DNA of 64,000 nucleotides, from the IMG/VR virus record IMGVR_UViG_2718218305_000006; one strand, 5' to 3'. Shown piece by piece: positions 3,272 through 60,180 of this stretch. The notes below the pieces were generated by a model. It saw only the letters and a list, made by a program, of their open reading frames with translations. It did no database searches and was not told the DNA's origin. The position numbers and the translations under genes were made by a program. This DNA comes from a virus. Its lineage: Duplodnaviria > Heunggongvirae > Uroviricota > Caudoviricetes. Positions within the stretch are counted from its first letter, which is position 1. The number at the start of each line of letters is the position of its first letter.

Positions 3272-3670
3272 ATGAAACACCGTGAAATACGGGCGGCAGT
3301 TCTGTCTGCCCTGAAAGAAAATATTTCTGAGAGGGTGAGCTGGTTTGACGGTCGCCCGGTTTTTATTGATGAACAGGAACTGCCTGCTGTTGCTGTTTAC
3401 CTGACAGATGCGTCTGCTGCTGACGAGTTCGTTGATGAGGGAACCTGGGAGGCGACACTGCATATTGAGGTTTTTCTCAGGGCAAAAGAACCGGACTCGG
3501 CACTGGATATGTGGATGGAAGAAAAAATTCTTCCTGCGCTGGAGGCAGTTCCCGGGCTCAGTGCATTACTGCTGAAGATGAATCTTCAGGGGTATGACTA
3601 CCGCCGGGATGATGAGTTTATGATGTGGGGATCGGCAGATCTCCTGTGGAAAATTACCTACGAGATGTGA
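3272..3670 (+). CDS. U: Minor tail protein U
   Basis: 132 aa, lambda gpU-like (..[26 protein letters not shown]..); divergent (~50%) from the U copy at 47223. Confidence 0.85.
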
Positions 3671-3677
3671 GGACGAT

Positions 3678-4430
3678 ATGGCAACACCAAATCCCCTTGA
3701 GCCGGTAAAAGGTGCCGGTACCACTCTGTGGGTTTACAACGGCAAGGGTGATGCTTATGCAAACCCGTTGTCAGACGATGACTGGCAGCGACTGGCTAAG
3801 GTGAAGGATCTGACGCCGGGCGAGATGACGGCAGAACCCTACGATGATAACTACCTGGATGATGAAGACGCGGACTGGACCGCGACCGGGCAGGGGCAGA
3901 AGTCTGCAGGAGATACCAGTTTTACGCTGGCCTGGAAACCGGGAGAAGAAGGTCAGAAAGGGCTTATAGGCTGGTTTGAAAGCGGGGATGTGCGGGCCTA
4001 TAAAATCCGTTTCCCAAATGGCACGGTGGATGTGTTCCGTGGCTGGGTCAGCAGTATCGGTAAGGCCGTGACGGCGAAAGAAGTGATCACCCGCACGGTG
4101 AAAGTCACTAACGTGGGCAAACCTTCCGTGGCGGAAGAACGCAGCGAAATTACGCCGGCCACTGCAATTAAGGTGACACCGACATCCGGTACGGTGGCAA
4201 AAGGGAAAACAACCACCCTGACGGTTTCTTTTGAGCCGGAAAGTGCAACCGACAAGACGTTCAGAGCGGTTTCCGCCGATCCGTCGAAAGCCACCATTAG
4301 TGTGAAAGATATGACAATTACGGTAAACGGCGTGGCGACAGGTAAGGTGCAGATCCCTGTGGTGAGCGGAAATGGTCAGTTCGCCGCAGTGGCTGAAGTC
4401 ACCGTTACTGAAGCGGGCGCTGCAGGGTAA
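3678..4430 (+). CDS. V: Major tail protein V (with C-terminal Big_2-like domain)
   Basis: 250 aa, strong similarity to lambda gpV (..[35 protein letters not shown]..). Confidence 0.9.
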
Positions 4431-4443
4431 ACGGAGGTAATAC

Positions 4444-4866
4444 ATGTTTCTGAAAACAGAACAATTTGAATATAACGGTGTGTCCGTCACGCTTTCCGAA
4501 TTGTCTGCGCTGCAGCGGTTTGATTATATGAAGTTTGTTTCAGACGCAGCACAACAGAAGACAACGAAGCATAATGCCGTGCACATTAACCAGCGATATC
4601 TGGAAACGGCATCCCTGCTTGTGGCGATGTCGCTATGGCATTCCCATTCCCTCAAAGGCACTCTGGCCTCTCCGGAGACAGAGATGCAGCAGATCCGCCG
4701 TGAAGTGATGCTGGGATGGCCTGCTGATGCACTGAATCAGGCAACGAACCGGGTGCTTTATCTTTCAGGTATGCTGGATAACCGGCACGATGCCGATCCT
4801 GAACCAACCGGGAAAGCAGAAGCGACAGAGCCGGTAACATCAAAAAAGCATTCGAAGGTGAGCTGA
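4444..4866 (+). CDS. G: Tail assembly chaperone G
   Basis: 140 aa starting MFLKTEQFEYNGVSVTLSELSALQR, lambda gpG-like. Confidence 0.85.
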   Translation: MFLKTEQFEYNGVSVTLSELSALQRFDYMKFVSDAAQQKTTKHNAVHINQRYLETASLLVAMSLWHSHSLKGTLASPETEMQQIRREVMLGWPADALNQATNRVLYLSGMLDNRHDADPEPTGKAEATEPVTSKKHSKVS

Positions 4867-5201
4867 ACTTTGTCCTGAAACTGGCGCGTGAGATGGGGAG
4901 AGCCGACTGGCGCGCCATGCTTGCCGGGATGACATCCACCGAATATGCCGACTGGCGACGTTTTTACTGCACGCATTATTTTCAGGATACCCAGCTGGAT
5001 ATGCATTTTTCCGGGCTGACGTACGCCGTACTCAGCCTGTTTTTTTGCGATCCGGATATGCATCCGGCGGATTTCAGCCTGTTCGCTCCGGAGGCAGAGG
5101 AAGGACAGGCGGAGACGCCGGACGAAAATGATGTACTGATGCAGAAGGCGGCGGGCCTCGCCGGTGGAGTCCGTTTCGGGGAGGAGGGAAGGAGGTTGTG
5201 A
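4842..5201 (+). CDS. T: T segment of G-T fusion chaperone, reached by programmed -1 frameshift from G at A_AAA_AAG (4842-4848)
   Basis: -1 frame is open from 4803; in-phase slippery heptamer tcA AAA AAG; shifted frame reads ..KKAFEGELNFVLKLAREMGRADWRAMLAGMTSTEYADWRRFY, lambda gpT-like. Confidence 0.75.
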   Translation, partial: KKAFEGELNFVLKLAREMGRADWRAMLAGMTSTEYADWRRFYCTHYFQDTQLDMHFSGLTYAVLSLFFCDPDMHPADFSLFAPEAEEGQAETPDENDVLMQKAAGLAGGVRFGEEGRRL

Positions 5202-5244
5202 CAGTTATTGATGGTATCAGAGGACATTTCAGGAGGTGACCACG

Positions 5245-7890
5245 ATGGCAGGTAATTTTGCCGATCTGACAGCCGTGCTGACACTGGATTCTGCCCGTTT
5301 TTCTGAAGAGGCAGCGCGGGTAAAAAAAGAGCTGGGTGAAACCAGTGCGCTTGCTGATTTGATGTCCGGGAAAGTCAGTCAGTCTTTCAGAAAACAGGCT
5401 GATGCTGCTGAGCAGAGTCTGAGCCGACAGGCGCTGGCTGCACAAAAAGCCGGGATATCAGTCGGACAGTATAAGGCTGCCATGCGCACACTGCCCGCAC
5501 AGTTCACGGATATTGTCACTCAGCTTGCCGGTGGTCAGAATCCCTTCCTTATCATGCTGCAGCAGGGGGGGCAGATCAGCGATTCATTCGGTGGACCGCT
5601 CAGCCTGCTTACCCTGCTGAAGGAGGAACTTCTCGGGATCAGGGATGCCTCTGAATCATCAGAGGAGTCGCTGTCAGATACGGCAAATGCACTGGCTGAA
5701 AATGCCCGGAATGCCGGTGAGCTGGGACGATTTATGTCGGTGGCCCGTGTGGCGGCAGGTGGCGGGGTTGCCGTACTGGCCGCGCTTGCTGCCGCCGCCT
5801 GGCAGGCAGAGCAGGCTGACCGGGCCTTATTGCGTTCACTGACCCTGACCGGAGGGGCTGCTGCCACCACAACGGCAGAATTGTGGAAAATGGCCGGGGT
5901 GATCAGCGATGAAGCCGGTGGTGGTATCAGACAGGCGGCAGAAAATCTGGCCCGTCTGGCAGAAAGCGGGAAATATACCGCCGGGCAGCTACGGATCATG
6001 GGGGAAACCTCTCAGAGATGGCTGCAGACGGTGGGGGACGATGCCGGGAAGGTGGAAAAAGCCTTTGAAGGGATTGCAGCAGATCCGGTGAAGGCGCTGG
6101 CCTCCCTGAATCAGCAGTATAACTTCCTGAGCGTTTCCCAGTTACGCCATATTGATGAGCTTGAGCGCACGAAAGGTAAACAGGCTGCGGTGACGGAGGC
6201 GATGTCCCTGTTTGCGGATGTCATGAATGCACGTCTGGAGCAACTTGATAAAGCGGCCACGCCGGTGGAAAAAATCTGGGACGATGTTAAAACCTGGACT
6301 TCTGACGCATGGGCATGGATAGGTGATCATACACTGGGGGCACTCAGTCTGATCACTGACGTGGTGGCAGGAACCGTTGAACAGGTGAAGCTGCTGCTTG
6401 TGCAGGGGGATCTGGCGCTGGCTGAATTTATTCAGTCAGCCTGGGAAACGACAAAGAATGTGCCCGGCGTTGGTGCGTTGTTTGGTGAACTGGCAGAAGA
6501 GAACCGCGTATTTATTGAGAAAACAAAACGCGATGAACTGGCGCTGAGAAAATCCATTGCGGAACGGGATGCGCGTATACGCCAGGGGGAAATGGGGTAC
6601 ATCAACCGTTCGCGTGCAACAGGCGTCAGCAAAGGTCCGGGGCAGCAGGAAGCCGTCAGCCGTCTGGCTGAAGAGCTGACAGGTAAAAAGCATACATCAC
6701 CGAAAACGCGCTCTGCCGGGGAGAGGGAAGAGGAGCAGGCAAGAGAGGCTCTGCTTGCCCTTGAAGCTGAGCTCAGGACGCTGGAAAAACACAGCGGTGC
6801 GAATGAGAAAATCAGCCGGCAGCGCCGTGATTTATGGAAGGCGGAAAGTCAGTATGCGGTCCTGAAAGAGGCTGCCACGAAACGACAGTTATCTGAGCAG
6901 GAAAAATCCCTGCTGGCGCATAAAGACGAGACGCTGGAGTACAAACGCCAGCTGGCTGAGCTGGGCGACAAGGTTGAATACCAGAAACGCCTGAATGAGC
7001 TGGCACAGCAGGCGGTGCGGTTTGAAGAGCAGCAGAGCGCGAAGCAGGCCGCCATCAGCGCAAAAGCCCGCGGTCTCACTGACCGTCAGGCGCAGCGGGA
7101 GTCTGAAGCGCAGCGTCTTCGGGACGTGTACGGTGATAATCCGGCTGCGCTGGCGAAGGCCACATCGGCACTGAAGAACACCTGGTCTGCGGAGGAGCAG
7201 CTTCGTGGAAGCTGGCTGGCCGGGCTGAAGTCCGGCTGGGGGGAGTGGGCGGAAAGTGCGACGGACAGTTTTTCGCAGGTTAAAAGTGCTGCCACGCAGA
7301 CCTTTGACGGTATTGCACAGAATATGGCGGCGATGCTGACCGGTGCAGAGGCAGACTGGCGGGGATTCACCCGTTCGGTGCTGTCCATGATGACAGAAAT
7401 CCTGCTTAAACAGGCCATGGTGGGCATTGTCGGGCGTATCGGCAGCGCCATTGGCGGTGCTTTCGGTGGTGGTGCATCTGCTTCCTCGGGGACGGCCATT
7501 GAGGCTGCGGCGGCGAACTTCCATTTCGCGACCGGAGGATTTACGGGGACGGGCGGCAAATATGAGCCTGCGGGGATAGTTCACCGCGGGGAGTTTGTTT
7601 TCACGAAAGAGGCAACCAGCCGGATAGGTGTGGGGAATCTTTACCGTCTGATGCGCGGCTATGCGGAAGGTGGTTATGTGGGTGGTGCCGGAAGTCCGGC
7701 GCAGATGCGGCGGGCGGAAGGTATTAATTTTAATCAGAACAATCACGTGGTGATTCAGAACGACGGCACCAACGGACAGGCGGGGCCGCAGCTGATGAAG
7801 GCGGTGTATGACATGGCCCGCAAGGGGGCGCAGGATGAGCTCCGGCTGCAGTTGCGTGATGGCGGTATGTTATCGGGGAGCGGGCGATGA
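5245..7890 (+). CDS. H: Tail tape measure protein H
   Basis: ATG at 5245 with AGGAGG 8 nt upstream (track start 5236 is a GTG inside the SD); C-terminal two-thirds and last residues (..LRDGGMLSGSGR) match lambda gpH; stop overlaps M start (ATGA). Confidence 0.9.
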   Translation: MAGNFADLTAVLTLDSARFSEEAARVKKELGETSALADLMSGKVSQSFRKQADAAEQSLSRQALAAQKAGISVGQYKAAMRTLPAQFTDIVTQLAGGQNPFLIMLQQGGQISDSFGGPLSLLTLLKEELLGIRDASESSEESLSDTANALAENARNAGELGRFMSVARVAAGGGVAVLAALAAAAWQAEQADRALLRSLTLTGGAAATTTAELWKMAGVISDEAGGGIRQAAENLARLAESGKYTAGQLRIMGETSQRWLQTVGDDAGKVEKAFEGIAADPVKALASLNQQYNFLSVSQLRHIDELERTKGKQAAVTEAMSLFADVMNARLEQLDKAATPVEKIWDDVKTWTSDAWAWIGDHTLGALSLITDVVAGTVEQVKLLLVQGDLALAEFIQSAWETTKNVPGVGALFGELAEENRVFIEKTKRDELALRKSIAERDARIRQGEMGYINRSRATGVSKGPGQQEAVSRLAEELTGKKHTSPKTRSAGEREEEQAREALLALEAELRTLEKHSGANEKISRQRRDLWKAESQYAVLKEAATKRQLSEQEKSLLAHKDETLEYKRQLAELGDKVEYQKRLNELAQQAVRFEEQQSAKQAAISAKARGLTDRQAQRESEAQRLRDVYGDNPAALAKATSALKNTWSAEEQLRGSWLAGLKSGWGEWAESATDSFSQVKSAATQTFDGIAQNMAAMLTGAEADWRGFTRSVLSMMTEILLKQAMVGIVGRIGSAIGGAFGGGASASSGTAIEAAAANFHFATGGFTGTGGKYEPAGIVHRGEFVFTKEATSRIGVGNLYRLMRGYAEGGYVGGAGSPAQMRRAEGINFNQNNHVVIQNDGTNGQAGPQLMKAVYDMARKGAQDELRLQLRDGGMLSGSGR

Positions 7891-8216
7891 AAACATTTCG
7901 CTGGAAAGTGAAGCCGGATATGGAGGTGAACTCGCAGCCGTCGGTGCGTGAAGTGCGTTTTGGTGACGGGTACTCACAGCGTATGGCGGCAGGGCTGAAT
8001 GCTGACCTGAAAACATACCGTGTGACGCTTTCCGTGACCCGGGAGGAGGCCCGGCATCTGGAAGCGTTCCTGGCAGAGCACGGAGGCTGGAAGGCATTTT
8101 TGTGGAAGCCACCCTATGCATACCGGCAGATAAAGGTGACCTGTGCCGGGTGGTCTGCGCGGGTCGGGATGTTGCGCGTTGAGTTCAGCGCGGAGTTTAA
8201 GCAGGTGGTGAACTGA
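7887..8216 (+). CDS. M: Minor tail protein M
   Basis: 109 aa MKTFRWKVKPDMEVNSQPSVREVRFGDGYSQR.. lambda gpM-like. Confidence 0.9.
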   Translation: MKTFRWKVKPDMEVNSQPSVREVRFGDGYSQRMAAGLNADLKTYRVTLSVTREEARHLEAFLAEHGGWKAFLWKPPYAYRQIKVTCAGWSARVGMLRVEFSAEFKQVVN

Positions 8217-8914
8217 TGCAGGATATCCACGAAGAAAGTCTTAACGAGTCGGTAAAATCAGAGCAGTCACCGCGGGTGGTGCTCTGGGAAATTGACCTGA
8301 CGGTGCAGGGCGGTGAGCGCTATTTTTTCTGCAATGAGCTGAATGAAAAAGGGGAGGCGGTCACCTGGCAGGGGCGGCAATATCAGGCATACCCGATTGA
8401 CGGCAGTGGCTTTGAGATGAACGGGAAGGGCAGCAGTGCCAGACCGTCGCTGACGGTGTCCAATCTGTTTGGTCTGGTCACCGGGATGGCGGAGGACCTG
8501 CAGAGCCTGGTGGGGGCCACGGTGGTCCGCCGCCGGGTGTATGCCCGTTTTCTGGATGCGGTGAATTTTGTGGCGGGCAATCCGGAAGCGGACCCGGAGC
8601 AGGAGCTGAGCGACCGCTGGGTGGTGGAGCAGATGTCAGAGCTGACGGCCATGACAGCCTCGTTTGTGCTGGCAACACCGACGGAGACGGACGGGGCGCT
8701 GTTTCCTGGTCGCATCATGCTGGCGAACACCTGTATGTGGGATTACCGGGGAGATGAATGCGGGTATAACGGTCCTGCGGTGGCGGATGAGTTCGACAAC
8801 CCCACCACGGATATCCGTAAGGACAGATGCAGCAAGTGCATGCGCGGGTGTGAGATGCGCGGCATGGTGGCTAATTTTGGCGGTTTCCTTTCCATTAATA
8901 AACTTTCGCAGTAA
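8216..8914 (+). CDS. L: Minor tail protein L
   Basis: 232 aa lambda gpL-like, Cys-rich C-terminus. Confidence 0.9.
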   Translation: MQDIHEESLNESVKSEQSPRVVLWEIDLTVQGGERYFFCNELNEKGEAVTWQGRQYQAYPIDGSGFEMNGKGSSARPSLTVSNLFGLVTGMAEDLQSLVGATVVRRRVYARFLDAVNFVAGNPEADPEQELSDRWVVEQMSELTAMTASFVLATPTETDGALFPGRIMLANTCMWDYRGDECGYNGPAVADEFDNPTTDIRKDRCSKCMRGCEMRGMVANFGGFLSINKLSQ

Positions 8915-8924
8915 ATCCCGGTTT

Positions 8925-9668
8925 ATGACACAGACTGAATCAGCGATTCTGGCGCATGCCCGGCGGTGTGCGCCTGCGGAGTCGTGCGGCTTCGTGGTGA
9001 GAACGCCGGAGGGGGAGCGGTATATCCCTTGTGTGAATATCTCTGCAGAGCCGGAGGCGTATTTTCGTATTGCACCGGAAGACTGGCTGCGGGCAGAGAT
9101 GCAGGGGGAGATTGTGGCACTGGTCCACAGTCATCCCGGTGGTCTGCCCTGGCTGAGCGAGGCCGACCGGCGGCTGCAGATAAAAAGTGCACTGTCCTGG
9201 TGGCTGGTCTGCCGGGGGGACATTCATAAATTCCGCTGTGTGCCACATCTGACAGGACGGCTCTTTGAGCACGGGGTGACGGACTGTTACACGCTGTTCC
9301 GGGATGCATACCATCTGGCGGGGACTGAAATGCCGGATTTTCATCGCGAGGATGACTGGTGGCGCAACGGCCAGAACCTGTACCTGGACAATATGGAGGG
9401 AACGGGCTTTTACCGGGTGCCCCTGTCCTCTGCACAGGCGGGCGATATTCTGCTGTGCTGCTTTGGTGCTTCGGTACCGAACCATGCCGCCATTTACTGT
9501 GGCAACGGTGAGCTGCTTCACCATCTGCCTGAACAACTGAGTAAACGGGAGAGGTATTCCGAAAAATGGCAACGACGAACGCATTCTGTCTGGCGTCACC
9601 GCCACTGGCACGCATCTGCCTTCACGGGGATTTACAACGATTTGGCCGCCGCCTCAGCCTGTATGTGA
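8925..9668 (+). CDS. K: Tail assembly protein K (MPN/NlpC-P60-like)
   Basis: ATG at 8925 (MTQTESAILAHARRC..) equals the 247-aa copy at 52876; track ORF 8664 is an upstream in-frame extension. Confidence 0.85.
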   Translation: MTQTESAILAHARRCAPAESCGFVVRTPEGERYIPCVNISAEPEAYFRIAPEDWLRAEMQGEIVALVHSHPGGLPWLSEADRRLQIKSALSWWLVCRGDIHKFRCVPHLTGRLFEHGVTDCYTLFRDAYHLAGTEMPDFHREDDWWRNGQNLYLDNMEGTGFYRVPLSSAQAGDILLCCFGASVPNHAAIYCGNGELLHHLPEQLSKRERYSEKWQRRTHSVWRHRHWHASAFTGIYNDLAAASACM

Positions 9669-46692: not shown

Positions 46693-47226
46693 ATGGCGAT
46701 AAAAGGGCTTGATCAGGCGATTGAAAATCTGAGCCGGGTTCGTAAAAACGCCATTCCGGCGGCTTCAGCAATGGCCATTAACCGCGTGGCCACAACGGCG
46801 ATTAATCAGTCTTCATCACAGGTTGCCCGGGAGACAAAGGTACGCCGGAAACTGGTAAAGGAACGGTCCAGACTGAAACGGGCCACGGTCAGAAATCCGA
46901 ATGCCAGAATTATCGTTAAACGCGGTGATCTCCCTGTGATTAAGCTGGGGATCAGGATGCTGGGCCGTCGTCCGGACAGCATACTTAAAGCTGGTCAGCA
47001 TCGGTATCAGCGGGCATTTATCCAGCGATTAAAAAATGGTCGCTGGCATGTCATGCAGCGTGTGGCCGGGAAAAACCGTTACCCCATTGATGTGGTGAAA
47101 ATCCCGATGGCGGCCCCACTGAAACAGGCGTTTGATGAGAATATTGACCGTATCCGGCGTGAACGTCTGCCCGGAGAACTGGCATACGCGCTGAAACAAC
47201 AACTTAGGATTGCGATAAAACGATGA
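46693..47226 (+). CDS. Z: Minor tail protein Z
   Basis: 177 aa lambda gpZ-like along full length. Confidence 0.9.
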   Translation: MAIKGLDQAIENLSRVRKNAIPAASAMAINRVATTAINQSSSQVARETKVRRKLVKERSRLKRATVRNPNARIIVKRGDLPVIKLGIRMLGRRPDSILKAGQHRYQRAFIQRLKNGRWHVMQRVAGKNRYPIDVVKIPMAAPLKQAFDENIDRIRRERLPGELAYALKQQLRIAIKR

Positions 47227-47618
47227 AACATACTGATATCCGTGCGGCAGTGCTGGATGCACTGGAGCTGCATGAACACGGGGCGACGCTGTTTGATGGT
47301 CGCCCCGTTGTTTTTGACGAAGAGGATTTTCCGGCCGTCGCGGTTTATCTGACGGATGCAGAGTATACCGGTGAAGAGCTGGATGCAGATACCTGGCGGG
47401 CCACACTGCATATTGAGGTGTTTTTACCGGCACAGGTACCGGATTCGGAGCTTGATCAGTGGATGGAAAGCCGGATTTATCCGGCGGTGACTGCGATCCC
47501 GGCACTGGCAGACCTGATTACGACGATGGTTACGCAGGGCTATGAGTATCGTCGTGATGACGATATGGCGTTATGGAGTTCTGCGGATCTGACTTATTCC
47601 ATTACATACGAGATGTGA
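47223..47618 (+). CDS. U: Minor tail protein U
   Basis: 131 aa lambda gpU-like. Confidence 0.9.
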
Positions 47619-47625
47619 GGACGAT

Positions 47626-48378
47626 ATGGCAACACCAAATCCCCTTGAGCCGGTAAAAGGTGCCGGTACCACTCTGTGGGTTTACAACGGCAAGGGTGAT
47701 GCTTATGCAAACCCGTTGTCAGACGATGACTGGCAGCGACTGGCTAAGGTGAAGGATCTGACGCCGGGCGAGATGACGGCAGAACCCTACGATGATAACT
47801 ACCTGGATGATGAAGACGCGGACTGGACCGCGACCGGGCAGGGGCAGAAGTCTGCAGGAGATACCAGTTTTACGCTGGCCTGGAAACCGGGAGAAGAAGG
47901 TCAGAAAGGGCTTATAGGCTGGTTTGAAAGCGGGGATGTGCGGGCCTATAAAATCCGTTTCCCAAATGGCACGGTGGATGTGTTCCGTGGCTGGGTCAGC
48001 AGTATCGGTAAGGCCGTGACGGCGAAAGAAGTGATCACCCGCACGGTGAAAGTCACTAACGTGGGCAAACCTTCCGTGGCGGAAGAACGCAGCGAAATTA
48101 CGCCGGCCACTGCAATTAAGGTGACACCGACATCCGGTACGGTGGCAAAAGGGAAAACAACCACCCTGACTGTTTCTTTTGAGCCGGAAAGTGCAACCGA
48201 CAAGACGTTCAGAGCGGTTTCCGCCGATCCGTCGAAAGCCACCATTAGTGTGAAAGATATGACAATTACGGTAAACGGCGTGGCGACAGGTAAGGTGCAG
48301 ATCCCTGTGGTGAGCGGAAATGGTCAGTTCGCCGCAGTGGCTGAAGTCACCGTTACTGAAGCGGGCGCTGCAGGGTAA
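47626..48378 (+). CDS. V: Major tail protein V
   Basis: Identical protein to copy at 3678. Confidence 0.9.
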
Positions 48379-48391
48379 ACGGAGGTAATAC

Positions 48392-48814
48392 ATGTTTCTG
48401 AAAACAGAACAATTTGAATATAACGGTGTGTCCGTCACGCTTTCCGAATTGTCTGCGCTGCAGCGGTTTGATTATATAAAGTTTGTTTCAGACGCAGAAC
48501 AACAGGAGACAACGAAGCATGATGTCGTGCACATTAACCAGCGATATCTGGAAACGGCATCCCTGCTTGTGGCGATGTCGCTATGGCATTCCCATTCCCT
48601 CAAAGGCACTCTGGCCTCTCCGGAGACAGAGATGCAGCAGATCCGCCGTGAAGTGATGCTGGGATGGCCTGCTGATGCACTGAATCAGGCAACGAACCGG
48701 GTGCTTTATCTTTCAGGTATGCTGGATAACCGGCACGATGCCGATCCTGAACAAACCGGTAAAGCAGAAGCGACTGAGTCGGTAACATCAAAAAAGCATT
48801 CGAAGGCGAGCTGA
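48392..48814 (+). CDS. G: Tail assembly chaperone G
   Basis: 140 aa, few substitutions versus copy at 4444. Confidence 0.85.
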   Translation: MFLKTEQFEYNGVSVTLSELSALQRFDYIKFVSDAEQQETTKHDVVHINQRYLETASLLVAMSLWHSHSLKGTLASPETEMQQIRREVMLGWPADALNQATNRVLYLSGMLDNRHDADPEQTGKAEATESVTSKKHSKAS

Positions 48815-49254
48815 ACTTTGTCCTGAAACTGGCGCGAGAGATGGGGAGACCCGACTGGCGCGCCATGCTTGCCGGGATGACATCCACCGAATATGCCGAC
48901 TGGCGACGTTTTTACTGCACGCATTATTTTCAGGATACCCAACTGGACGCTCATTTTTCCGGGCTGATGTACGCCGTACTCAGCCTGTTTTTTGGCGATC
49001 CGGATATGCATCCGGCGGATTTCAGTCTGCTTGCTCCAGCGTGTGAGGAAGAGCAGACGGAGATGCCGGACGAGGAAGAAATGCTGATGCAGAAAGCGAC
49101 AGGAGTTGCCGGAGGCGTCCGGTTCGGAGGGGACGGAGGGCGCGATATTTCACCTTCTGCGGATGTGGTGGATGTCAGCGAGGATGATGTTGCATTAATG
49201 ATGGCTTCAGCGGGGATTTCCGGAGGTGTGAGATATGTCCCAGCCAGCGGGTGA
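48790..49254 (+). CDS. T: T segment of G-T fusion (programmed -1 frameshift at A_AAA_AAG 48790-48796)
   Basis: Same in-phase heptamer as copy 1; the out-of-phase GGGAAAG of copy 1 is GGTAAAG here; C-terminus differs from copy 1 and overlaps H start. Confidence 0.75.
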   Translation, partial: KKAFEGELNFVLKLAREMGRPDWRAMLAGMTSTEYADWRRFYCTHYFQDTQLDAHFSGLMYAVLSLFFGDPDMHPADFSLLAPACEEEQTEMPDEEEMLMQKATGVAGGVRFGGDGGRDISPSADVVDVSEDDVALMMASAGISGGVRYVPASG

Positions 49255-51907
49255 TCTGGTTATTGATTTGAGTCTGGATGCGGCCCGGTTTGATGAACAG
49301 ATGGCCCGGGTACGCCGTCATTTTTCCAGTCTGGAGGCGGATGCCAGAAAAACCGCCAGTACTGTTGAACAGGGGCTGAGCCGACAGGCGCTGGCGGCAC
49401 AAAAAGCCGGGATATCAGTCGGACAGTATAAGGCTGCCATGCGCACACTGCCCGCACAGTTCACGGATATTGTCACTCAGCTTGCCGGTGGTCAGAATCC
49501 CTTCCTTATCATGCTGCAGCAGGGGGGGCAGATCAGCGATTCATTCGGTGGACCGCTCAGCCTGCTTACCCTGCTGAAGGAGGAACTTCTCGGGATCAGG
49601 GATGCCTCTGAATCATCAGAGGAGTCGCTGTCAGATACGGCAAATGCACTGGCTGAAAATGCCCGGAATGCCGGTGAGCTGGGACGATTTATGTCGGTGG
49701 CCCGTGTGGCGGCAGGTGGCGGGGTTGCCGTACTGGCCGCGCTTGCTGCCGCCGCCTGGCAGGCAGAGCAGGCTGACCGGGCCTTATTGCGTTCACTGAT
49801 CCTGACCGGAGGGGCGGCTGCCACCACAACGGCAGAATTGTGGAAAATGGCCGGGGTGATCAGCGATGAAGCCGGTGGTGGTATCAGACAGGCGGCAGAA
49901 AATCTGGCCCGTCTGGCAGAAAGCGGGAAATATACCGCCGGGCAGCTACGGATCATGGGGGAAACCTCTCAGAGATGGCTGCAGACGGTGGGGGACGATG
50001 CCGGGAAGGTGGAAAAAGCCTTTGAAGGGATTGCAGCAGATCCGGTGAAGGCGCTGGCCTCCCTGAATCAGCAGTATAACTTCCTGAGCGTTTCCCAGTT
50101 ACGCCATATTGATGAGCTTGAGCGCACGAAAGGTAAACAGGTTGCGGTGACGGAGGCGATGTCCCTGTTTGCGGATGTCATGAATGCACGTCTGGAGCAA
50201 CTTGATAAAGCGGCCACGCCGGTGGAAAAAATCTGGGACGATGTTAAAACCTGGACTTCTGACGCATGGGCATGGATAGGTGATCATACACTGGGGGCAC
50301 TCAGTCTGATCACTGACGTGGTGGCCGGAACCGTTGAACAAGTGAAGCTGCTGCTTGTGCAGGGGGATCTGGCGCTGGCTGAATTTATTCAGTCAGCCTG
50401 GGAAACGACAAAGAATGTGCCCGGCGTTGGTGCGTTGTTTGGTGAACTGGCAGAAGAGAACCGCGTATTTATTGAGAAAACAAAACGCGATGAACTGGCG
50501 CTGAGAAAATCCATTGCGGAACGGGATGCGCGTATACGCCAGGGGGAAATGGGGTACATCAACCGCTCGCGTGCAACAGGCGTCAGCAAAGGTCCGGGGC
50601 AGCAGGAAGCCGTCAGCCGTCTGGCTGAAGAGCTGACAGGTAAAAAGCATACATCACCGAAAACGCGCTCTGCCGGGGAGAGGGAAGAGGAGCAGGCAAG
50701 AGAGGCTCTGCTTGCCCTTGAAGCTGAGCTCAGGACGCTGGAAAAACACAGCGGTGCGAATGAGAAAATCAGCCGGCAGCGCCGTGATTTATGGAAGGCG
50801 GAAAGTCAGTATGCGGTCCTGAAAGAGGCTGCCACGAAACGACAGTTATCTGAGCAGGAAAAATCCCTGCTGGCGCATAAAGACGAGACGCTGGAGTACA
50901 AACGCCAGCTGGCTGAGCTGGGCGACAAGGTTGAATACCAGAAACGCCTGAATGAGCTGGCACAGCAGGCGGTGCGGTTTGAAGAGCAGCAGAGCGCGAA
51001 GCAGGCCGCCATCAGCGCAAAAGCCCGCGGTCTCACTGACCGTCAGGCGCAGCGGGAGTCTGAAGCGCAGCGTCTTCGGGACGTGTACGGTGATAATCCG
51101 GCTGCGCTGGCGAAGGCCACATCGGCACTGAAGAACACCAGGTCTGCGGAGGAGCAGCTTCGTGGAAGCTGGATGGCCGGGCTGAAGTCCGGCTGGGGCG
51201 AGTGGGCGGAAAGTGCGACGGACAGTTTTTCGCAGGTTAAAAGTGCTGCCACGCAGACCTTTGACGGTATTGCACAGAATATGGCGGCGATGCTGACCGG
51301 TGCAGAGGCAGACTGGCGGGGATTCACCCGTTCGGTGCTGTCCATGATGACAGAAATCCTGCTTAAACAGGCCATGGTGGGCATTGTCGGGCGTATCGGC
51401 AGCGCCATTGGCGGTGCTTTCGGTGGTGGTGCATCTGCTTCCTCGGGGACGGCCATTCAGGCTGCGGCGGCGAACTTCCATTTTGCGACCGGCGGATTTA
51501 CGGGAACCGGCGGCAAATATGAGCCTGCGGGGATAGTTCACCGCGGGGAGTTTGTTTTCACGAAAGAGGCAACCAGCCGGATAGGTGTGGGGAATCTTTA
51601 CCGTCTGATGCGTGGCTATGCGGAAGGGGGGTATGTGGGTGGTGCCGGAAGTCCGGCGCAGATGCGGCGGGCGGAAGGTATTAATTTTAATCAGAACAAT
51701 CACGTGGTGATTCAGAACGACGGCACCAACGGACAGGCGGGGCCGCAGCTGATGAAGGCGGTGTATGACATGGCCCGCAAGGGGGCGCAGGATGAGATTC
51801 AGGCGCAGTTGCGTGATGCGGTATGTTATCGGGGAGCGGGCGATGAAAACATTTCGCTGGAAAGTGAAGCCGGATATGGAGGTGAACTCGCAGCCGTCGG
51901 TGCGTGA
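49235..51907 (+). CDS. H: Tail tape measure protein H (lambda-like N-terminus; 3' end frameshifted relative to copy 1)
   Basis: Starts MSQPAGDLVIDLSLDAARFDEQMARVRRHF (lambda-like); single-base difference near 51818 changes the last 11 codons and extends the ORF 65 nt into M. Confidence 0.85.
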   Translation: MSQPAGDLVIDLSLDAARFDEQMARVRRHFSSLEADARKTASTVEQGLSRQALAAQKAGISVGQYKAAMRTLPAQFTDIVTQLAGGQNPFLIMLQQGGQISDSFGGPLSLLTLLKEELLGIRDASESSEESLSDTANALAENARNAGELGRFMSVARVAAGGGVAVLAALAAAAWQAEQADRALLRSLILTGGAAATTTAELWKMAGVISDEAGGGIRQAAENLARLAESGKYTAGQLRIMGETSQRWLQTVGDDAGKVEKAFEGIAADPVKALASLNQQYNFLSVSQLRHIDELERTKGKQVAVTEAMSLFADVMNARLEQLDKAATPVEKIWDDVKTWTSDAWAWIGDHTLGALSLITDVVAGTVEQVKLLLVQGDLALAEFIQSAWETTKNVPGVGALFGELAEENRVFIEKTKRDELALRKSIAERDARIRQGEMGYINRSRATGVSKGPGQQEAVSRLAEELTGKKHTSPKTRSAGEREEEQAREALLALEAELRTLEKHSGANEKISRQRRDLWKAESQYAVLKEAATKRQLSEQEKSLLAHKDETLEYKRQLAELGDKVEYQKRLNELAQQAVRFEEQQSAKQAAISAKARGLTDRQAQRESEAQRLRDVYGDNPAALAKATSALKNTRSAEEQLRGSWMAGLKSGWGEWAESATDSFSQVKSAATQTFDGIAQNMAAMLTGAEADWRGFTRSVLSMMTEILLKQAMVGIVGRIGSAIGGAFGGGASASSGTAIQAAAANFHFATGGFTGTGGKYEPAGIVHRGEFVFTKEATSRIGVGNLYRLMRGYAEGGYVGGAGSPAQMRRAEGINFNQNNHVVIQNDGTNGQAGPQLMKAVYDMARKGAQDEIQAQLRDAVCYRGAGDENISLESEAGYGGELAAVGA

Positions 51908-52172
51908 AGTGCGTTTTGGTGACGGGTACTCACAGCGTATGGCGGCAGGGCTGAATGCTGACCTGAAAACATACCGTGTGACGCTTTCCGTGACCCGGGA
52001 GGAGGCCCGGCATCTGGAAGCGTTCCTGGCAGAGCACGGAGGCTGGAAGGCATTTTTGTGGAAGCCACCCTATGCATACCGGCAGATAAAGGTGACCTGT
52101 GCCGCCTGGTCATCACGGGTTCGCATGCTGCGGGTTGAATTCAGTGCCGAGTTTAAGCAGGTGGTGAACTGA
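51843..52172 (+). CDS. M: Minor tail protein M
   Basis: ATG at 51843 (MKTFRWK..); track ORF 51765 is an upstream extension. Confidence 0.9.
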   Translation: MKTFRWKVKPDMEVNSQPSVREVRFGDGYSQRMAAGLNADLKTYRVTLSVTREEARHLEAFLAEHGGWKAFLWKPPYAYRQIKVTCAAWSSRVRMLRVEFSAEFKQVVN

Positions 52173-52870
52173 TGCAGGATATTCACGAAGAAAGCCTGAA
52201 CGAGTCGGTTAAATCAGAGCAGTCACCGCGGGTGGTGCTCTGGGAAATTGACCTGACGGTGCAGGGCGGTGAGCGGTATTTTTTCTGTAATGAGCTGAAT
52301 GAAAAAGGGGAGGCGGTCACCTGGCAGGGGCGGCAATATCAGGTATACCCGATTGACGGCAGCGGTTTTGAGATGAACGGGAAGGGCAGCAGTGCCAGAC
52401 CGTCGCTGACAGTGTCCAATCTTTTCGGCCTTGTCACCGGGATGGCGGAGGATTTGCAGAGCCTGGTGGGTGCCACGGTGGTCCGCCGCCGGGTGTATGC
52501 GCGTTTTCTGGATGCGGTGAATTTTGTGGCAGGCAATCCTGAGGCAGACCCGGAGCAGGAGCTGACGGACCGGTGGGTGGTGGAGCAGATGTCATCGCTG
52601 ACGGCCATGACGGCCTCGTTTGTGCTGGCGACACCGACGGAGACGGACGGAGCGCTGTTTCCCGGTCGCATCATGCTGGCGAACACCTGTATGTGGGATT
52701 ACCGGGGAGATGAATGCGGGTATAACGGTCCTGCGGTGGCGGATGAGTTCGATAAACCCACCACGGATATCCGGAAGGACAGATGCAGTAAATGCATGCG
52801 CGGGTGTGAGATGCGCGGCATGGTGGCTAATTTTGGCGGTTTCCTTTCCATTAACAAACTTTCGCAGTAA
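52172..52870 (+). CDS. L: Minor tail protein L
   Basis: 232 aa, near-identical to copy at 8216. Confidence 0.9.
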   Translation: MQDIHEESLNESVKSEQSPRVVLWEIDLTVQGGERYFFCNELNEKGEAVTWQGRQYQVYPIDGSGFEMNGKGSSARPSLTVSNLFGLVTGMAEDLQSLVGATVVRRRVYARFLDAVNFVAGNPEADPEQELTDRWVVEQMSSLTAMTASFVLATPTETDGALFPGRIMLANTCMWDYRGDECGYNGPAVADEFDKPTTDIRKDRCSKCMRGCEMRGMVANFGGFLSINKLSQ

Positions 52871-52875
52871 ATCCA

Positions 52876-53619
52876 ATGACACAGACAGAATCAGCGATTC
52901 TGGCGCATGCCCGGCGGTGTGCGCCTGCGGAGTCGTGCGGCTTCGTGGTGAGAACGCCGGAGGGGGAGCGGTATATCCCTTGTGTGAATATCTCTGCAGA
53001 GCCGGAGGCGTATTTTCGTATTGCACCGGAAGACTGGCTGTGGGCAGAGATGCAGGGGGAGATTGTGGCACTGGTCCACAGTCATCCCGGTGGTCTGCCC
53101 TGGCTGAGCGAGGCGGACCGGCGGCTGCAGATAAAGAGTGCCCTGCCCTGGTGGCTGGTCTGCCGGGGGGAAATTCACAAATTCCGCTGTGTGCCGCACC
53201 TGACCGGGCGTCGTTTTGAGCACGGGGTGACGGACTGTTACACCCTGTTCCGGGATGCATACCATCTGGCGGGGATAACGCTGCCGGATTTTGTGCGTGA
53301 GGATGACTGGTGGCGCAACGGTCAGAACCTTTACCTGGACAATATGGCGGTCACCGGCTTTTACCGGGTGCCCCTGTCCTCTGCACAGGCGGGCGATATC
53401 CTGCTGTGCTGCTTTGGCGCATCGGTGGCCAATCATGCCGCCATTTACTGCGGCAACGGTGAACTGCTTCACCATCTGCCTGAACAACTGAGTAAACGGG
53501 AGAGGTATTCTGAAAAATGGCAACGACGAACGCATTCTGTCTGGCGTCACCGCCACTGGCACGCATCTGCCTTCACGGGGATTTGCAACGATTTGGCCGC
53601 CGCCTCAGCCTGTACGTGA
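52876..53619 (+). CDS. K: Tail assembly protein K
   Basis: 247 aa. Confidence 0.9.
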   Translation: MTQTESAILAHARRCAPAESCGFVVRTPEGERYIPCVNISAEPEAYFRIAPEDWLWAEMQGEIVALVHSHPGGLPWLSEADRRLQIKSALPWWLVCRGEIHKFRCVPHLTGRRFEHGVTDCYTLFRDAYHLAGITLPDFVREDDWWRNGQNLYLDNMAVTGFYRVPLSSAQAGDILLCCFGASVANHAAIYCGNGELLHHLPEQLSKRERYSEKWQRRTHSVWRHRHWHASAFTGICNDLAAASACT

Positions 53620-54194
53620 ACACGGCAGCGGAAGCCATCCGTGCCCTGTCGCTGCAGATGCCGGGATTCCGCCGTCAGATGAACGAAGGCTGGTACCAGA
53701 TACGTATTCGCGGTGAGGACACGGCACCGGAGGCGGTGTACGCCCGTCTTCACGAACCTCTGGGTGAGGGGGCGGTCATCCATATTGTGCCGCGACTGGC
53801 CGGAGCCGGAAAGGGCGGACTGCAGATTGTGCTGGGGGCGGCAGCCATCGTGGGCTCTTTCTTCACCGCCGGCGCAACGATGGCGTTGTGGGGCGCAGCC
53901 CTGAGTGCCGGAGGGCTGACTGCCACCACGATGCTGTTCTCACTGGGTGCCAGCATGATACTGGGCGGTGTGGCCCAGATGCTGGCACCGAAGGCAAAAA
54001 CACCGGAGTACAGGGCGACGGATAACGGTAAACAGAACACGTATTTTTCGTCACTGGATAACATGATTGCCCAGGGGAACCCGATGCCGGTGCCTTATGG
54101 TGAAATGCTGGTTGGTTCACGACGGATATCCCAGGACATCAGCACCCGTGATGAGGGCGGAGACGGGAAAGTGGTGGTTATCGGGCGGGGATGA
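53517..54194 (+). CDS. I: Tail assembly protein I
   Basis: 225 aa. Confidence 0.85.
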   Translation: MATTNAFCLASPPLARICLHGDLQRFGRRLSLYVNTAAEAIRALSLQMPGFRRQMNEGWYQIRIRGEDTAPEAVYARLHEPLGEGAVIHIVPRLAGAGKGGLQIVLGAAAIVGSFFTAGATMALWGAALSAGGLTATTMLFSLGASMILGGVAQMLAPKAKTPEYRATDNGKQNTYFSSLDNMIAQGNPMPVPYGEMLVGSRRISQDISTRDEGGDGKVVVIGRG

Positions 54195-54434
54195 AAATAA
54201 AAAAATCCCGCAGAGTTAGCGGAGCTGCGGGAGAGAACGATGAAGATTAACGTTATGGAGTTATTTTTCAGGCATCAAAAAAGTAATGCAGCGTCATTAT
54301 TGCGGCTACAGGCAATTGCCGGAAATGTGAAGAGTTTCAGAAATTTTATTCCGTCATGACACAGGCACCCTCCGGGGTGCCTGTTGTTTTCTGGCATAAA
54401 CAGATTCAGACATCAGACAGGAGAGGGGGACAGA

Positions 54435-57400: not shown

Positions 57401-57914
57401 CAGCGGTAACGTGAATGCGAATTCCGGGACGCTCAACAACGTCACGATTAATGAGAACTGTCAGATTAAGGGGAAACTGTCAGCCAACCAGATTGAAGGT
57501 GATATTGTCAAAACGGTCAGCAAGTCTTTCCCCCGCACGAACAGTTATGCCAGTGGCACCATCACGGTAAGAATCAGTGATGATCAGAAATTTGACCGGC
57601 AGGTCATGATACCGCCAGTGTTATTCCGCGGTGGTAAGCATGAGAATTTCAACAGTAATAACCAACAGTCATACTGGTATTCAACCTGCCGGTTAAGAGT
57701 GACCCGCAATGGTCAGGAGATTTTTAATCAGTCCACGACGGATGCTCAGGGCGTATTTTCCTCAGTTATAGATATGCCTGCCGGACAGGGGACGCTGACA
57801 CTGACATTCACCGTATCTTCATCAGGAGCGAATAACTGGACACCAACAACCAGTATCAGCGATCTGCTGGTTGTGGTGATGAAAAAATCCACAGCAGGTA
57901 TCAGTATCAGCTGA
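54435..57914 (+). CDS. J: Host specificity protein J
   Basis: GTG start homologous to copy 1; 1159 aa; small indel versus copy 1 (HFDGDQSGT vs SFEPQSGT). Confidence 0.9.
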
Positions 57915-57932
57915 ATTTTATAACCCAGAACG

Positions 57933-57956
57933 GGCGTCAGAAATGACGCCTTTTTT
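57933..57956 (+). terminator. Rho-independent terminator after J (copy 2)
   Basis: Same hairpin as 13979-14002. Confidence 0.55.
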
Positions 57957-57980
57957 ATTGCAGAAAAGCGAGAGGTAATT

Positions 57981-58580
57981 ATGCGTAAACTTTATGCCGC
58001 CATTTTGTCCGCAGCCATTTGTCTGGCCGTATCCGGTGCGCCTGCATGGGCGTCTGAACATCAGTCCACGCTGAGCGCGGGGTATCTTCATGCCCGGACG
58101 AGCGCTCCCGGTAGCGATAATCTTAACGGGATTAACGTGAAATACCGTTATGAGTTTACGGACACACTGGGGATGGTGACGTCATTCAGCTATGCAGGAG
58201 ACAGGAATCGCCAGCTTACCCGTTACAGCGATACCCGCTGGCATGAAGATTCCGTGCGTAACCGCTGGTTCAGCGTGATGGCGGGGCCCTCTGTGCGCGT
58301 GAATGAATGGTTCAGCGCGTATGCGATGGCGGGTGTGGCTTACAGCCGTGTGTCGACTTTCTCCGGGGATTATCTCCGCGTAACTGACAACAAGGGGAAA
58401 ACGCATGATGTGCTGACCGGAAGTGATGACGGTCGCCACAGCAACACGTCTCTGGCGTGGGGAGCTGGCGTGCAGTTTAACCCGACCGAATCCGTGGCCA
58501 TTGATATTGCTTATGAAGGCTCCGGCAGTGGCGACTGGCGCACTGACGGCTTCATCGTGGGTGTCGGCTATAAATTCTGA
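57981..58580 (+). CDS. lom: Lom outer-membrane protein
   Basis: 199 aa, few substitutions versus copy 1. Confidence 0.9.
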
Positions 58581-58605
58581 TTAGCCAGGTAACACAGTGT
58601 TATGA

Positions 58606-59796
<1,191 letters not shown>

Positions 59797-59797
59797 C

Positions 59798-60067
59798 ATG
59801 AATATACTAAAAAAACTTATGCAGCGTCTGTGTGGTTGCGGAAAGCATGATGACCGTGAACACGGGGAGTTACTTACAGCACAGCTGCGACTGGGGCCGG
59901 CAGACATCCTGGAGTCAGATGAGAATGGTATTATCCCGGAGCAGGACAGGGTAATCACGCAGGTGGTGATACTGGATGCGGATAAAAAGCAGATACAGTG
60001 TGTGGTAAGACCGCTGCAAATCCTGCGTGCTGACGGGACGTGGGAAAATATTGGCGGGATGAAATAG
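59798..60067 (+). CDS. Small tail-fibre-associated protein (unknown function)
   Basis: Paralogue of 16006-16275. Confidence 0.5.
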   Translation: MNILKKLMQRLCGCGKHDDREHGELLTAQLRLGPADILESDENGIIPEQDRVITQVVILDADKKQIQCVVRPLQILRADGTWENIGGMK

Positions 60068-60084
60068 CCGACAGCTTCACAAAA

Positions 60085-60108
60085 ACCGGAGTCCGGCTCC
60101 GGTTTTTT
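60085..60108 (+). terminator. Rho-independent terminator at end of tail operon (copy 2)
   Basis: ACCGGAG-tccgg-CTCCGGT hairpin followed by T6. Confidence 0.55.
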
Positions 60109-60180
60109 GTTGTCACGTATGGGGGATGTTTGTTACAGCTATTTAAGTCTGGAGTTCAAATTAAAATAGGGAGCTTTGTT

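What the first reader, a model, noticed from the sequence alone, without database searches (positions are those of the whole stretch)
5245..5400. Mosaic junction at the T/H boundary: the two H copies have unrelated N-termini
H of prophage A begins MAGNFADLTAVLTLDSARFSEEAARVKKELGETSALADL.. while H of prophage B begins MSQPAGDLVIDLSLDAARFDEQMARVRRHFSSLEADARK.. (lambda-like); they converge at ..SRQALAAQKAGISVGQYKAAMRTLPAQFTD. The C-termini of T also differ. A recombination breakpoint therefore sits inside the otherwise identical tail cassette.
Basis: seen in the sequence. Interest (0 to 1): 0.35.

Follow-up and report, generated by a model that had tools for sequence, protein, structure and literature searches.

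The report
Swapped tape-measure start in twin prophages
Two neighbouring lambda-like prophages of an O157-type E. coli share near-identical tail genes except for a 340-base replaced patch spanning the end of gene T and the first 58 codons of the tape-measure gene H; this is ordinary phage mosaicism, but the patch version goes with the phage's tail-terminator and head genes rather than with its immediate neighbours.

Summary
From V to H the two cassettes differ at 1.1% of aligned columns. The exception is one patch (A 5078-5418, B 49026-49375), where 49% of columns differ.

The interpretation needs three corrections.
- The two H N-termini are old, divergent homologues, not unrelated sequences (44% amino-acid identity, same frame, dS about 1 against 0.01 downstream).
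- The feature is a cassette with two boundaries, not a single breakpoint.
- The short T of prophage A comes from a 1-base deletion that creates a stop, plus a 41-base deletion. The old T end is still readable after the stop.

Both versions are common. The A version ('alpha') occurs with this H body in 444 of 5426 complete E. coli genomes, and the B (lambda-type) version in 522. VT1-Sakai carries alpha.

The added result concerns linkage. In 118 distinct haplotypes the patch version is tightly linked to the tail-terminator U and head module (40/4/1/73). It is unlinked to G and to the H body, which are linked to each other. All 12 GenBank phages with A-type U carry alpha. About 4% of genomes break the rule.

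This is ordinary mosaicism, with a testable hint that the tape-measure N-terminus is matched to the terminator or neck.

The parts
3272..3670 (+). U of cassette A: tail terminator, 'U_A' type, 132 aa. It marks the HK97-like head-neck module upstream.
   Evidence: It is 59% identical to U of B and 89-100% identical to U in every alpha-patch locus examined. A/B nucleotide homology starts at 3653, at the U/V junction.
4444..4866 (+). G of cassette A: tail assembly chaperone, 'STEC-type' allele.
   Evidence: ORF. PGAP calls it gpG in strain RM12581. It is about 45-60% identical in nucleotides to lambda G.
4842..4848 (+). A AAA AAG heptamer in the G frame: the likely -1 frameshift site that produces G-T.
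   Evidence: Read directly from the sequence. The -1 frame is open from 4848 into T. Lambda and PU-1 have G GGA AAG at the same place.
4848..5201 (+). T reading frame of cassette A (ATG-bounded ORF 4893-5201), truncated. It keeps the whole TIGR01715/PF06223 core and the first copy of the C-terminal repeat.
   Evidence: TIGR01715 scores 154.9 bits and covers model positions 12-110 of 111. PF06223 is covered 1-73 of 73. PGAP labels the identical gene 'missing C-terminus'.
5078..5418 (+). The divergent cassette in A, the 'alpha1' allele. It holds the last 41 codons of T, the T remnant, the H ribosome-binding site and H codons 1-58.
   Evidence: Two-breakpoint fit. dS is 0.97 in the patch against 0.011 downstream.
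5202..5255 (+). Remnant of the ancestral T C-terminus (QLLMVSEDISGGDHDGR*) in the T frame, after the premature TGA.
   Evidence: It aligns with lambda MLMTVSEGIAGGVRYG* and PU-1 MLMMVSEGIPGGVRYGG*.
5231..5236 (+). AGGAGG Shine-Dalgarno sequence for H, 8 nt before the ATG.
   Evidence: Read directly from the sequence.
5245..7890 (+). H of cassette A: tape measure protein, 881 aa from ATG 5245.
   Evidence: Matches PF06791 (TMP_2) and PF09718. The start agrees with the PGAP annotation in RM12581.
5419..5590 (+). Conserved block of H (SRQALAAQKAGISVGQYKAAMR..QLAGGQ..LQQGGQ), the right-hand homology arm.
   Evidence: It is 76-88% identical among A, B, PU-1 and lambda. A further recombinant joint lies at about 5455 in locus L012.
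47223..47618 (+). U of cassette B: lambda-type terminator, 'U_B', 131 aa.
48392..48814 (+). G of cassette B, with the A AAA AAG heptamer at 48790-48796.
48796..49254 (+). T reading frame of cassette B (ATG-bounded ORF 48841-49254), full length with both C-terminal repeat copies. It overlaps the start of H by 20 nt.
   Evidence: TIGR01715 matches in two stretches.
49026..49375 (+). The divergent cassette in B, the lambda-type allele.
   Evidence: The H part is 77% identical in amino acids to lambda gpH residues 1-48.
49235..51907 (+). H of cassette B. Its 3' end is frameshifted by a 1-nt deletion at 51818/51819.
   Evidence: The Sakai Sp11 homologue ECs_2166 is intact at 870 aa.

Best explanation
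The feature is an allelic cassette of about 340 bp. It covers the C-terminal tail of T and the first 58 codons of the tape-measure gene H. It sits between two conserved stretches: the T core on the left and the H block SRQALAAQ..QQGGQ on the right.

The two prophages carry two old, homologous but very divergent versions. A carries 'alpha'. B carries the lambda type.

Shown: around the cassette, V-G-T(N) and the H body are about 99-100% identical. Both cassette versions occur on both kinds of G and H-body background, so exchange has happened on both sides.

Inferred: the exchange is homologous recombination within the conserved arms, between co-resident or incoming lambdoid phages.

Shown: the cassette version follows the type of the tail terminator U and the head-neck genes about 1.6 kb upstream. 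It does not follow the adjacent G or H body.

[quoted passage not shown] On this reading each prophage kept its own version while the rest of the tail block was exchanged or homogenised.

Shown for sequence, unknown for function: the alpha1 version also carries a truncated T, caused by a 1-nt deletion. This T keeps the conserved T domain and one of two C-terminal repeat copies.
For: **The patch and its age**
- Sharp two-boundary patch: 49% of columns differ inside, 1.1% outside, likelihood-ratio statistic 805.
- Synonymous divergence is 0.97 in the patch and 0.011 in the next 241 codons.
- The two N-termini align in the same frame, z about 10 against shuffles.

**The same alleles on other backgrounds**
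- PU-1 has alpha2 with a lambda-type G and H body and an intact T.
- L012 has alpha1 with a lambda-like H that begins about 40 bp beyond the patch.
- The independent pair L049/L131 is 100% identical on both sides and divergent only from -250 to +175 of the H start.

**Frequency**
- alpha1 with this H body is in 444 of 5426 complete E. coli genomes; the lambda-type version with this body is in 522.

**Linkage**
- Among 118 distinct haplotypes drawn from 159 classified loci, out of 225 fetched from the IMG/VR viral-contig collection: U x patch 40/4/1/73 (0.70 bit, Fisher 1e-25); G x body 72/1/4/41 (0.71 bit); all other pairs 0.003 bit or less.
- The U x patch link survives clustering at 97% identity (11/3/12/1).
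- In GenBank phages, the 12 records with A-type U are exactly the 12 with the alpha junction.

**Published context**
- gpG binds gpH, and the T domain binds gpV (PMC5009743).
- In T5 the tape-measure N-terminus fills the lumen up to the terminator ring (PMC11784142).
- O157 prophages recombine through shared sequence (PMC2669165).
Against: No donor with matching flanks was found for either version, so the direction of the exchange is unresolved.

The link between U and the patch is not absolute. A-type U with the lambda-type patch is fully present in 17 complete genomes (19 at 80% coverage or more; O145:H28, O111:H8, O121:H19 and some O157). Five IMG/VR contigs are also discordant.

U cannot be separated from the rest of the head-neck block: MCP, FII and Z travel with it.

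The haplotypes are related prophages, not independent samples, so the Fisher values overstate the evidence.

No physical contact between gpH and gpU is known for lambda, where the gpH N-terminus is unresolved in cryo-EM (PMC10721106, PMC12617516). The AlphaFold model of the N-terminus was low confidence (pLDDT 51).
Confidence: 0.75

Rival explanations
1. Neutral mosaicism only. Under frequent gene conversion between resident prophages, everything similar enough to pair becomes homogenised. The patch and the U/head region are too divergent to pair, so they survive as islands of heterology. On this view the U-patch link is a by-product of shared ancestry, not of function.
For: Both the patch and the region upstream of 3653 are too divergent for megablast, while the DNA between them is 99-100% identical. 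Discordant combinations persist in established serotype lineages, so a mismatch is at least tolerated in a prophage. Many O157 prophages are defective anyway (PMC2669165).
Against: G (about 45% nucleotide identity between types) and the H body are equally divergent islands, yet they reassort freely relative to U and to the patch (0.003 bit or less). A single exchange that moves G together with the H body should carry the patch lying between them, yet G and the patch show no linkage at all. The same patch boundaries recur in a second background.
Confidence: 0.4
2. Rapid divergence in place. The H N-terminus evolved quickly under diversifying selection, without any import of sequence.
For: The divergence is confined to a short coding stretch. 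dN is high at 0.73.
Against: Synonymous divergence is also near saturation (0.97) against 0.011 next door. The non-coding spacer and the T tail are replaced too. Each version exists as several sub-alleles on unrelated backgrounds.
Confidence: 0.03
3. Frameshift, sequencing error or mis-assembly across repeated prophage DNA.
For: The short T of A does result from a 1-nt deletion. H of B has a 1-nt deletion at its 3' end that Sakai Sp11 lacks. The exact arrangement around A is not found at 100% identity in the collection.
Against: No alternative frame of B resembles A's N-terminus. Both junction versions recur at 99% identity or more in hundreds of complete genomes and in deposited phages.
Confidence: 0.02
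4. Illegitimate recombination joined unrelated sequence to H.
For: Megablast and BLASTN find no nucleotide match across 5190-5404.
Against: The proteins are homologous in frame (tblastn against lambda H gives 39.7% identity, E=2e-3). Nucleotide motifs such as GATCTG..CTGGAT..GCCCG.TTT line up. Both boundaries lie in sequence conserved across all alleles.
Confidence: 0.03

Closest known systems
Bacteriophage lambda T and H (gpGT chaperone, gpH tape measure)
   Same: The gene order V-G-T-H-M-L is the same. There is a -1 frameshift site at the end of G. T carries a duplicated C-terminal motif. H matches TMP_2 and Tape_meas_lam_C. B's T/H junction is of the lambda type, with its H N-terminus 77% identical to lambda's.
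   Different: The G allele and the central H body of both window cassettes are a different ('STEC') type, with about 25-50% nucleotide identity to lambda over much of H. The slippery site is A AAA AAG rather than G GGA AAG. A's junction is the alpha allele with an 11-codon insertion and a truncated T.
VT1-Sakai (Sp15) and the long-tailed Stx2 phages, CP-1639, ASU11 and 1720a-02
   Same: They carry the same alpha1 junction at 97.7-99.8% identity, including the truncated T, together with the same A-type U.
   Different: They are different prophages at other chromosomal sites. The window's cassette A sits next to an Sp11-like prophage, where Sakai has Sp12 with an unrelated 1080-aa tape measure.
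Lambdoid genome mosaicism and recombination within the O157 prophage pool (PMC2669165; modular theory as reviewed in PMC9836094)
   Same: Near-identical stretches alternate with divergent ones, exchange runs through shared sequence, and several related prophages sit in one cell.
   Different: Here the module boundary lies inside two genes. It cuts T about 40 codons before its end and H after codon 58, rather than falling between genes.
Co-transfer of functionally interdependent genes in lambdoid phages (PMC9836094)
   Same: Non-random co-inheritance of interacting structural genes. The G and H-body pairing found here fits the known binding of gpG to gpH (PMC5009743).
   Different: The second pair (U/head with the first 58 codons of H) involves only part of a gene and skips over intervening genes. 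In my searches I found no description of it. No interaction is established.

Membership tests
Lambda-type tail tape measure protein | Pfam TMP_2 (PF06791) and Tape_meas_lam_C (PF09718) score above the gathering thresholds. | tested here: met
   For A: 156.2 and 73 bits. For B: 157.6 and 73 bits.
Lambda-type tail tape measure protein | The gene lies directly downstream of the G/T chaperone pair and upstream of M and L. | tested here: met
   ORF order. The PGAP and Sakai annotations of identical DNA agree.
phage_lam_T (TIGR01715) tail assembly protein T | The equivalog model scores above its cutoff over its full length. | tested here: met
   A scores 154.9 bits and B 180.6 bits against a cutoff of 77.35. 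Both cover model positions 12-110 of 111.
phage_lam_T (TIGR01715) tail assembly protein T | A full-length C-terminal extension carrying the second repeat copy, ending in overlap with the start of H as in lambda. | tested here: not met
   B meets this feature. A does not: it has TGA at 5199-5201 after a 1-nt deletion, leaves a 43-nt gap before H, and is flagged by PGAP as 'missing C-terminus'.
G/GT programmed -1 frameshift chaperone pair | An X XXY YYZ slippery heptamer in the G frame near its 3' end, with T open in the -1 frame. | tested here: met
   A AAA AAG lies at 4842-4848 and at 48790-48796. The -1 frame is open into T.
G/GT programmed -1 frameshift chaperone pair | The G-T fusion protein is actually produced at a low ratio. 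| not testable with these tools
   This needs protein analysis.
Mosaic module exchanged by homologous recombination | Abrupt changes in identity, with synonymous divergence far above that of the flanks. | tested here: met
Mosaic module exchanged by homologous recombination | Each allele is found on more than one flanking background (all four combinations present), and the flanks are conserved across alleles. | tested here: met
Co-adapted (co-transferred) module pair: U/head with the H N-terminus | Linkage between the two loci exceeds the linkage of either with the loci lying between or beside them, and this holds in more than one data set. | tested here: met
   0.70 bit against 0.003 bit or less. 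Concordance is 12 of 12 in GenBank phages. About 4% of complete genomes are discordant.
Co-adapted (co-transferred) module pair: U/head with the H N-terminus | A physical or functional interaction, and reduced fitness of mismatched combinations. | not testable with these tools
   The only support is indirect: the position of the tape-measure N-terminus in T5 and phiTE (PMC11784142, PMC11972413).

The most novel reading that the evidence does not exclude
The first ~58 residues of the lambda-family tape measure form a separate specificity module. It would have to match the tail terminator gpU, or another head-proximal partner such as Z, FII or the incoming DNA end. The central body of H would be matched separately to the chaperone G. 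The H gene would then be a chimera of independently co-adapted parts. The alpha/lambda-type pair would offer a natural swap experiment on how the end of the tape measure signals tail termination.
Probability: 0.4. Interest if true: 0.6.

Novelty: new member of a known kind. Interest (0 to 1): 0.33.

Why it matters
As a mosaic junction it matters little. Both versions have been in public sequences since VT1-Sakai, and recombination among O157 prophages is well documented.

Its value lies in the linkage pattern along U-V-G-T-H. G goes with the H body, as expected from chaperone binding. The H N-terminus goes with the terminator and head module instead. How the head-proximal end of the tape measure stops tube growth and hands over to the terminator is still unclear, and that end is unresolved in the lambda structures. 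A natural pair of interchangeable N-terminal modules, with known rare mismatches, makes the question directly testable.

There is also a practical point for annotation. The 'truncated T pseudogene' is a fixed feature of a widespread allele that keeps the whole conserved T domain.

Tried and rejected
- **Chi sites as the cause of the breakpoints.** There are 14 in the window, which is an enrichment, but the nearest is at 1375 and none lies near the patch.
- **Distant relatives or a donor lineage for the alpha patch.** A search of 1.8 billion representative proteins gave nine hits. Most are E. coli-like fragments of the same allele. The other two, a 4611-aa protein and a 1024-aa repeat protein at 24% identity, look like chance matches. 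The word-indexed search returned only short fragments, which could show N-terminal variants but not full-length context.
- **Structure of the N-terminal 118 residues.** The model is all-helical but at pLDDT 51, too weak to use, so no fold search was run.
- **Source genome.** Window 17000-41900 is 100% identical to Sakai Sp11. The cassette-A arrangement has no match at 100% identity; the best is 98%. It is neither Sakai Sp12 nor RM12581.
- **Literature.** The primary paper on gpG/gpGT interactions (J Mol Biol 2014) is not held, so I relied on a review. Nothing was found on phage ASU11.
I had noted a frameshift in K of cassette A. That was wrong: the 5-nt indel at 8919 lies in the L-K spacer, and K (8925-9668) is intact.
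- **Loci L083-L086.** These have a third U type but lack this tape-measure family, so they could not extend the test.
Full report
**What the window is.** It holds the right arm of one lambdoid prophage (cassette A, to about 17024) followed by a whole second prophage (cassette B). Window 17000-41900 is 100% identical to prophage Sp11 of E. coli O157:H7 Sakai. B's H start coincides with Sakai ECs_2166. The prophage carrying A is not Sakai's Sp12, which has an unrelated 1080-aa tape measure. No complete genome in the collection has the A arrangement at 100% identity; the best is 98%. The tail cassettes match from 3653 to 16343 and from 47601 to 60135 at about 96.6% identity.

**Checking the observation.** The quoted protein starts, the point of convergence and the different T ends are all correct.
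- BLASTN breaks the homology at 5189/5405 in A and 49137/49362 in B.
- From V to H, a two-breakpoint likelihood scan puts the divergent tract at A 5078-5418 and B 49026-49375.
- Inside it 188 of 383 columns differ. Outside it 44 of 4060 differ. The likelihood-ratio statistic is 805.
- 'Otherwise identical' holds only for V to H. L to J is a patchwork of 88-100% identity, and a second strongly divergent stretch lies at 15345-15745.

**What the patch contains.** It holds three things.
- The last 41 codons of T.
- The T/H junction. In A this is 43 nt of spacer with AGGAGG at 5231-5236. In B it is a 20-nt overlap of T and H.
- H codons 1-58 in A, or 1-47 in B.

**The two H N-termini are homologous.**
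- They align in the same frame with 21 of 48 residues identical and share DL..L.LD.ARF.E..ARV.
- The score is 69 against 23.2 +/- 4.5 for shuffles, and none of 2000 shuffles reached it. No other frame of B resembles A.
- A has an 11-codon insertion.
- Synonymous divergence is 0.97 in the patch and 0.011 in the following 241 codons. This means old alleles were brought together, not fast change in place.

**T of cassette A.**
- T in lambda, PU-1 and B ends with two copies of a motif: EDDVLMQKAAGLAGGVRFG followed by EDDVMLMTVSEGIAGGVRYG in lambda.
- A keeps the first copy.
- A 1-nt deletion after 5185 (GAC GGG became GA GGG) brings TGA 5199-5201 into frame. A further 41 nt are missing after about 5205.
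- The second copy survives in degraded form in the old frame, as QLLMVSEDISGGDHDGR* at 5202-5255.
- PGAP marks the identical gene as lacking its C-terminus. Even so, the truncated protein covers all of PF06223 and positions 12-110 of 111 in TIGR01715.
- The same truncation is present in VT1-Sakai, 1720a-02 and L012, so it is part of the alpha1 allele.
- An O158:H23 prophage has a different, in-frame loss of one repeat copy.

**Distribution.**
- GenBank phages: the alpha junction occurs in 12 of 164 matching records. These are VT1-Sakai, CP-1639, eight long-tailed Stx2 phages, ASU11 and 1720a-02. The lambda-type junction aligns over its length in 131 records, across a continuum of identities.
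- Complete E. coli genomes: the alpha patch is in 531 of 5426. By record, 451 are at 99% or more, 73 at 80-90% (alpha2) and 7 lower (alpha3).
- alpha1 joined to this H body is in 444 genomes. B's version joined to this body is in 522.
- More distant lambda-type N-termini, for example from Brenneria, lack the 11-codon insertion. No relatives of alpha were found outside E. coli-like sequences.

**Exchange on both sides of the patch.**
- PU-1 joins alpha2 and an intact T to a lambda-type G and H body.
- L012 joins alpha1 to a lambda-like H from about 40 bp beyond the patch.
- All four combinations of patch type and body type therefore exist.
- The flanks are conserved in all alleles at 76-96% identity: the T core at 4848-5077 and the H block at 5419-5590.
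- I infer homologous recombination in these arms. Chi sites are not involved.
- The direction of the exchange and the donor remain unresolved.

A and B also differ in U (59% identity) and in everything upstream. Every alpha locus first examined had A-type U.
- I fetched 225 loci from the IMG/VR viral-contig collection (L013-L237) using either U type or the STEC-type H body as query.
- I classified U, G, the patch and the H body in 159 loci, which gave 118 distinct haplotypes.

| Pair of loci | Counts | Shared information | Fisher p |
|---|---|---|---|
| U x patch | 40/4/1/73 | 0.70 bit | 1e-25 |
| G x H body | 72/1/4/41 | 0.71 bit | 6e-26 |
| U x G, U x body, G x patch, patch x body | not shown | 0.003 bit or less | 0.55-1 |

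- The U x patch link survives clustering at 97% identity (11/3/12/1).
- MCP, FII, Z and U travel as one block.
- In the lambda-type background an independent pair, L049 and L131, repeats the picture. Identity is 100% on both sides, and divergence runs only from -250 to +175 of the H start.
- In GenBank phages, the 12 records with A-type U are exactly the 12 with the alpha junction.
- Exceptions exist. A-type U with the lambda-type patch is complete in 17 genomes, and in 19 at 80% coverage or more. That is about 4% of the genomes that carry A-type U with this H body.

**Interpretation.**
- The G and H-body pairing fits the known binding of gpG to gpH, while the T domain binds gpV (PMC5009743). 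T and H are therefore probably replaced together because they are adjacent and overlap.
- The tape-measure C-terminus sits in the tail tip, and its N-terminus is unresolved in lambda (PMC10721106, PMC12617516).
- In T5 the N-terminal density reaches the top of the terminator ring, and terminators are thought to act with the tape measure in stopping growth (PMC11784142). In phiTE the N-terminal region is a loose helical bundle in the head-proximal lumen (PMC11972413).
- A functional match between the H N-terminus and the terminator or neck is therefore plausible but unproven.
- The neutral alternative is that islands of heterology escape homogenisation. It cannot be excluded. It does not easily explain why G and the H body reassort around a patch that stays with U.

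**Verdict.** As a mosaic junction it is ordinary and its alleles are long known. The linkage of the patch to the terminator and head module is a modest new lead that can be tested.

Noticed in passing
window 51810-51825 (compare 7853-7868): H of cassette B lacks one G (GATGGCGG became GATGCGG). This shifts the last ~11 codons and runs the ORF on to 51907, over the start of M. Sakai Sp11 (ECs_2166, 870 aa) and cassette A do not have the deletion. It may be a real mutation or an assembly error.
   Followed up: partly
IMG/VR loci L013-L237 (G and H body; window 4444-4866 and 5590-6500 as the reference types): The G allele and the central body of H are almost perfectly co-inherited (72/1/4/41 haplotypes), although the T/H patch between them is unlinked to both. 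This fits chaperone G being matched to the tape-measure body.
   Followed up: partly
window 5100-5255 and 49060-49254; L006 1460-1600: The T C-terminus holds a tandem duplicated motif of about 19 aa (..DD.LM....G.AGGVR[FY]G). Natural variants have lost one copy in different ways: truncation in alpha1, and an in-frame deletion between the copies in an O158:H23 prophage.
   Followed up: partly
window 4842-4848 and 48790-48796: Both cassettes use A AAA AAG, the dnaX-type heptamer, as the presumed G-T slippery site. Lambda and PU-1 have G GGA AAG there. The conserved T sequence begins immediately after this site, while G upstream is a different allele.
   Followed up: no
whole window, e.g. 22391, 26666, 27966, 28023, 30043, 30359, 35862, 36951, 37001: Chi (GCTGGTGG) occurs 14 times against 2.9 expected from shuffles, and 12 of the 14 are on the + strand. 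Most lie in the early region of prophage B.
   Followed up: no
window 3653 (47601 in B): The left edge of A/B homology falls at the U/V gene junction. Upstream, A has an HK97-like head (protease-capsid fusion, DUF2190, Gifsy-2-type connector, 209-aa Z) and B a lambda-like head (B, C, D, E, FI, FII, 177-aa Z).
   Followed up: partly
window 15345-15745 vs 59299-59537: This is a second strongly divergent stretch (45-72% identity), with a 162-bp indel at A 15492 / B 59445, in the region downstream of J (Lom / tail fibre).
   Followed up: no
window 16539-17024 vs 62239-62725: A 486-bp direct repeat at 97.7% identity lies at the right ends of the two prophages. The first copy ends where Sakai places the Sp12/Sp11 boundary.
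   Followed up: no
NZ_CP007136.1 1993486-1996908 and 16 other complete genomes: Prophages in O145:H28, O111:H8 and O121:H19 combine A-type Z/U with the lambda-type T/H patch. They are natural 'mismatch' cases worth testing for tail production.
   Followed up: no
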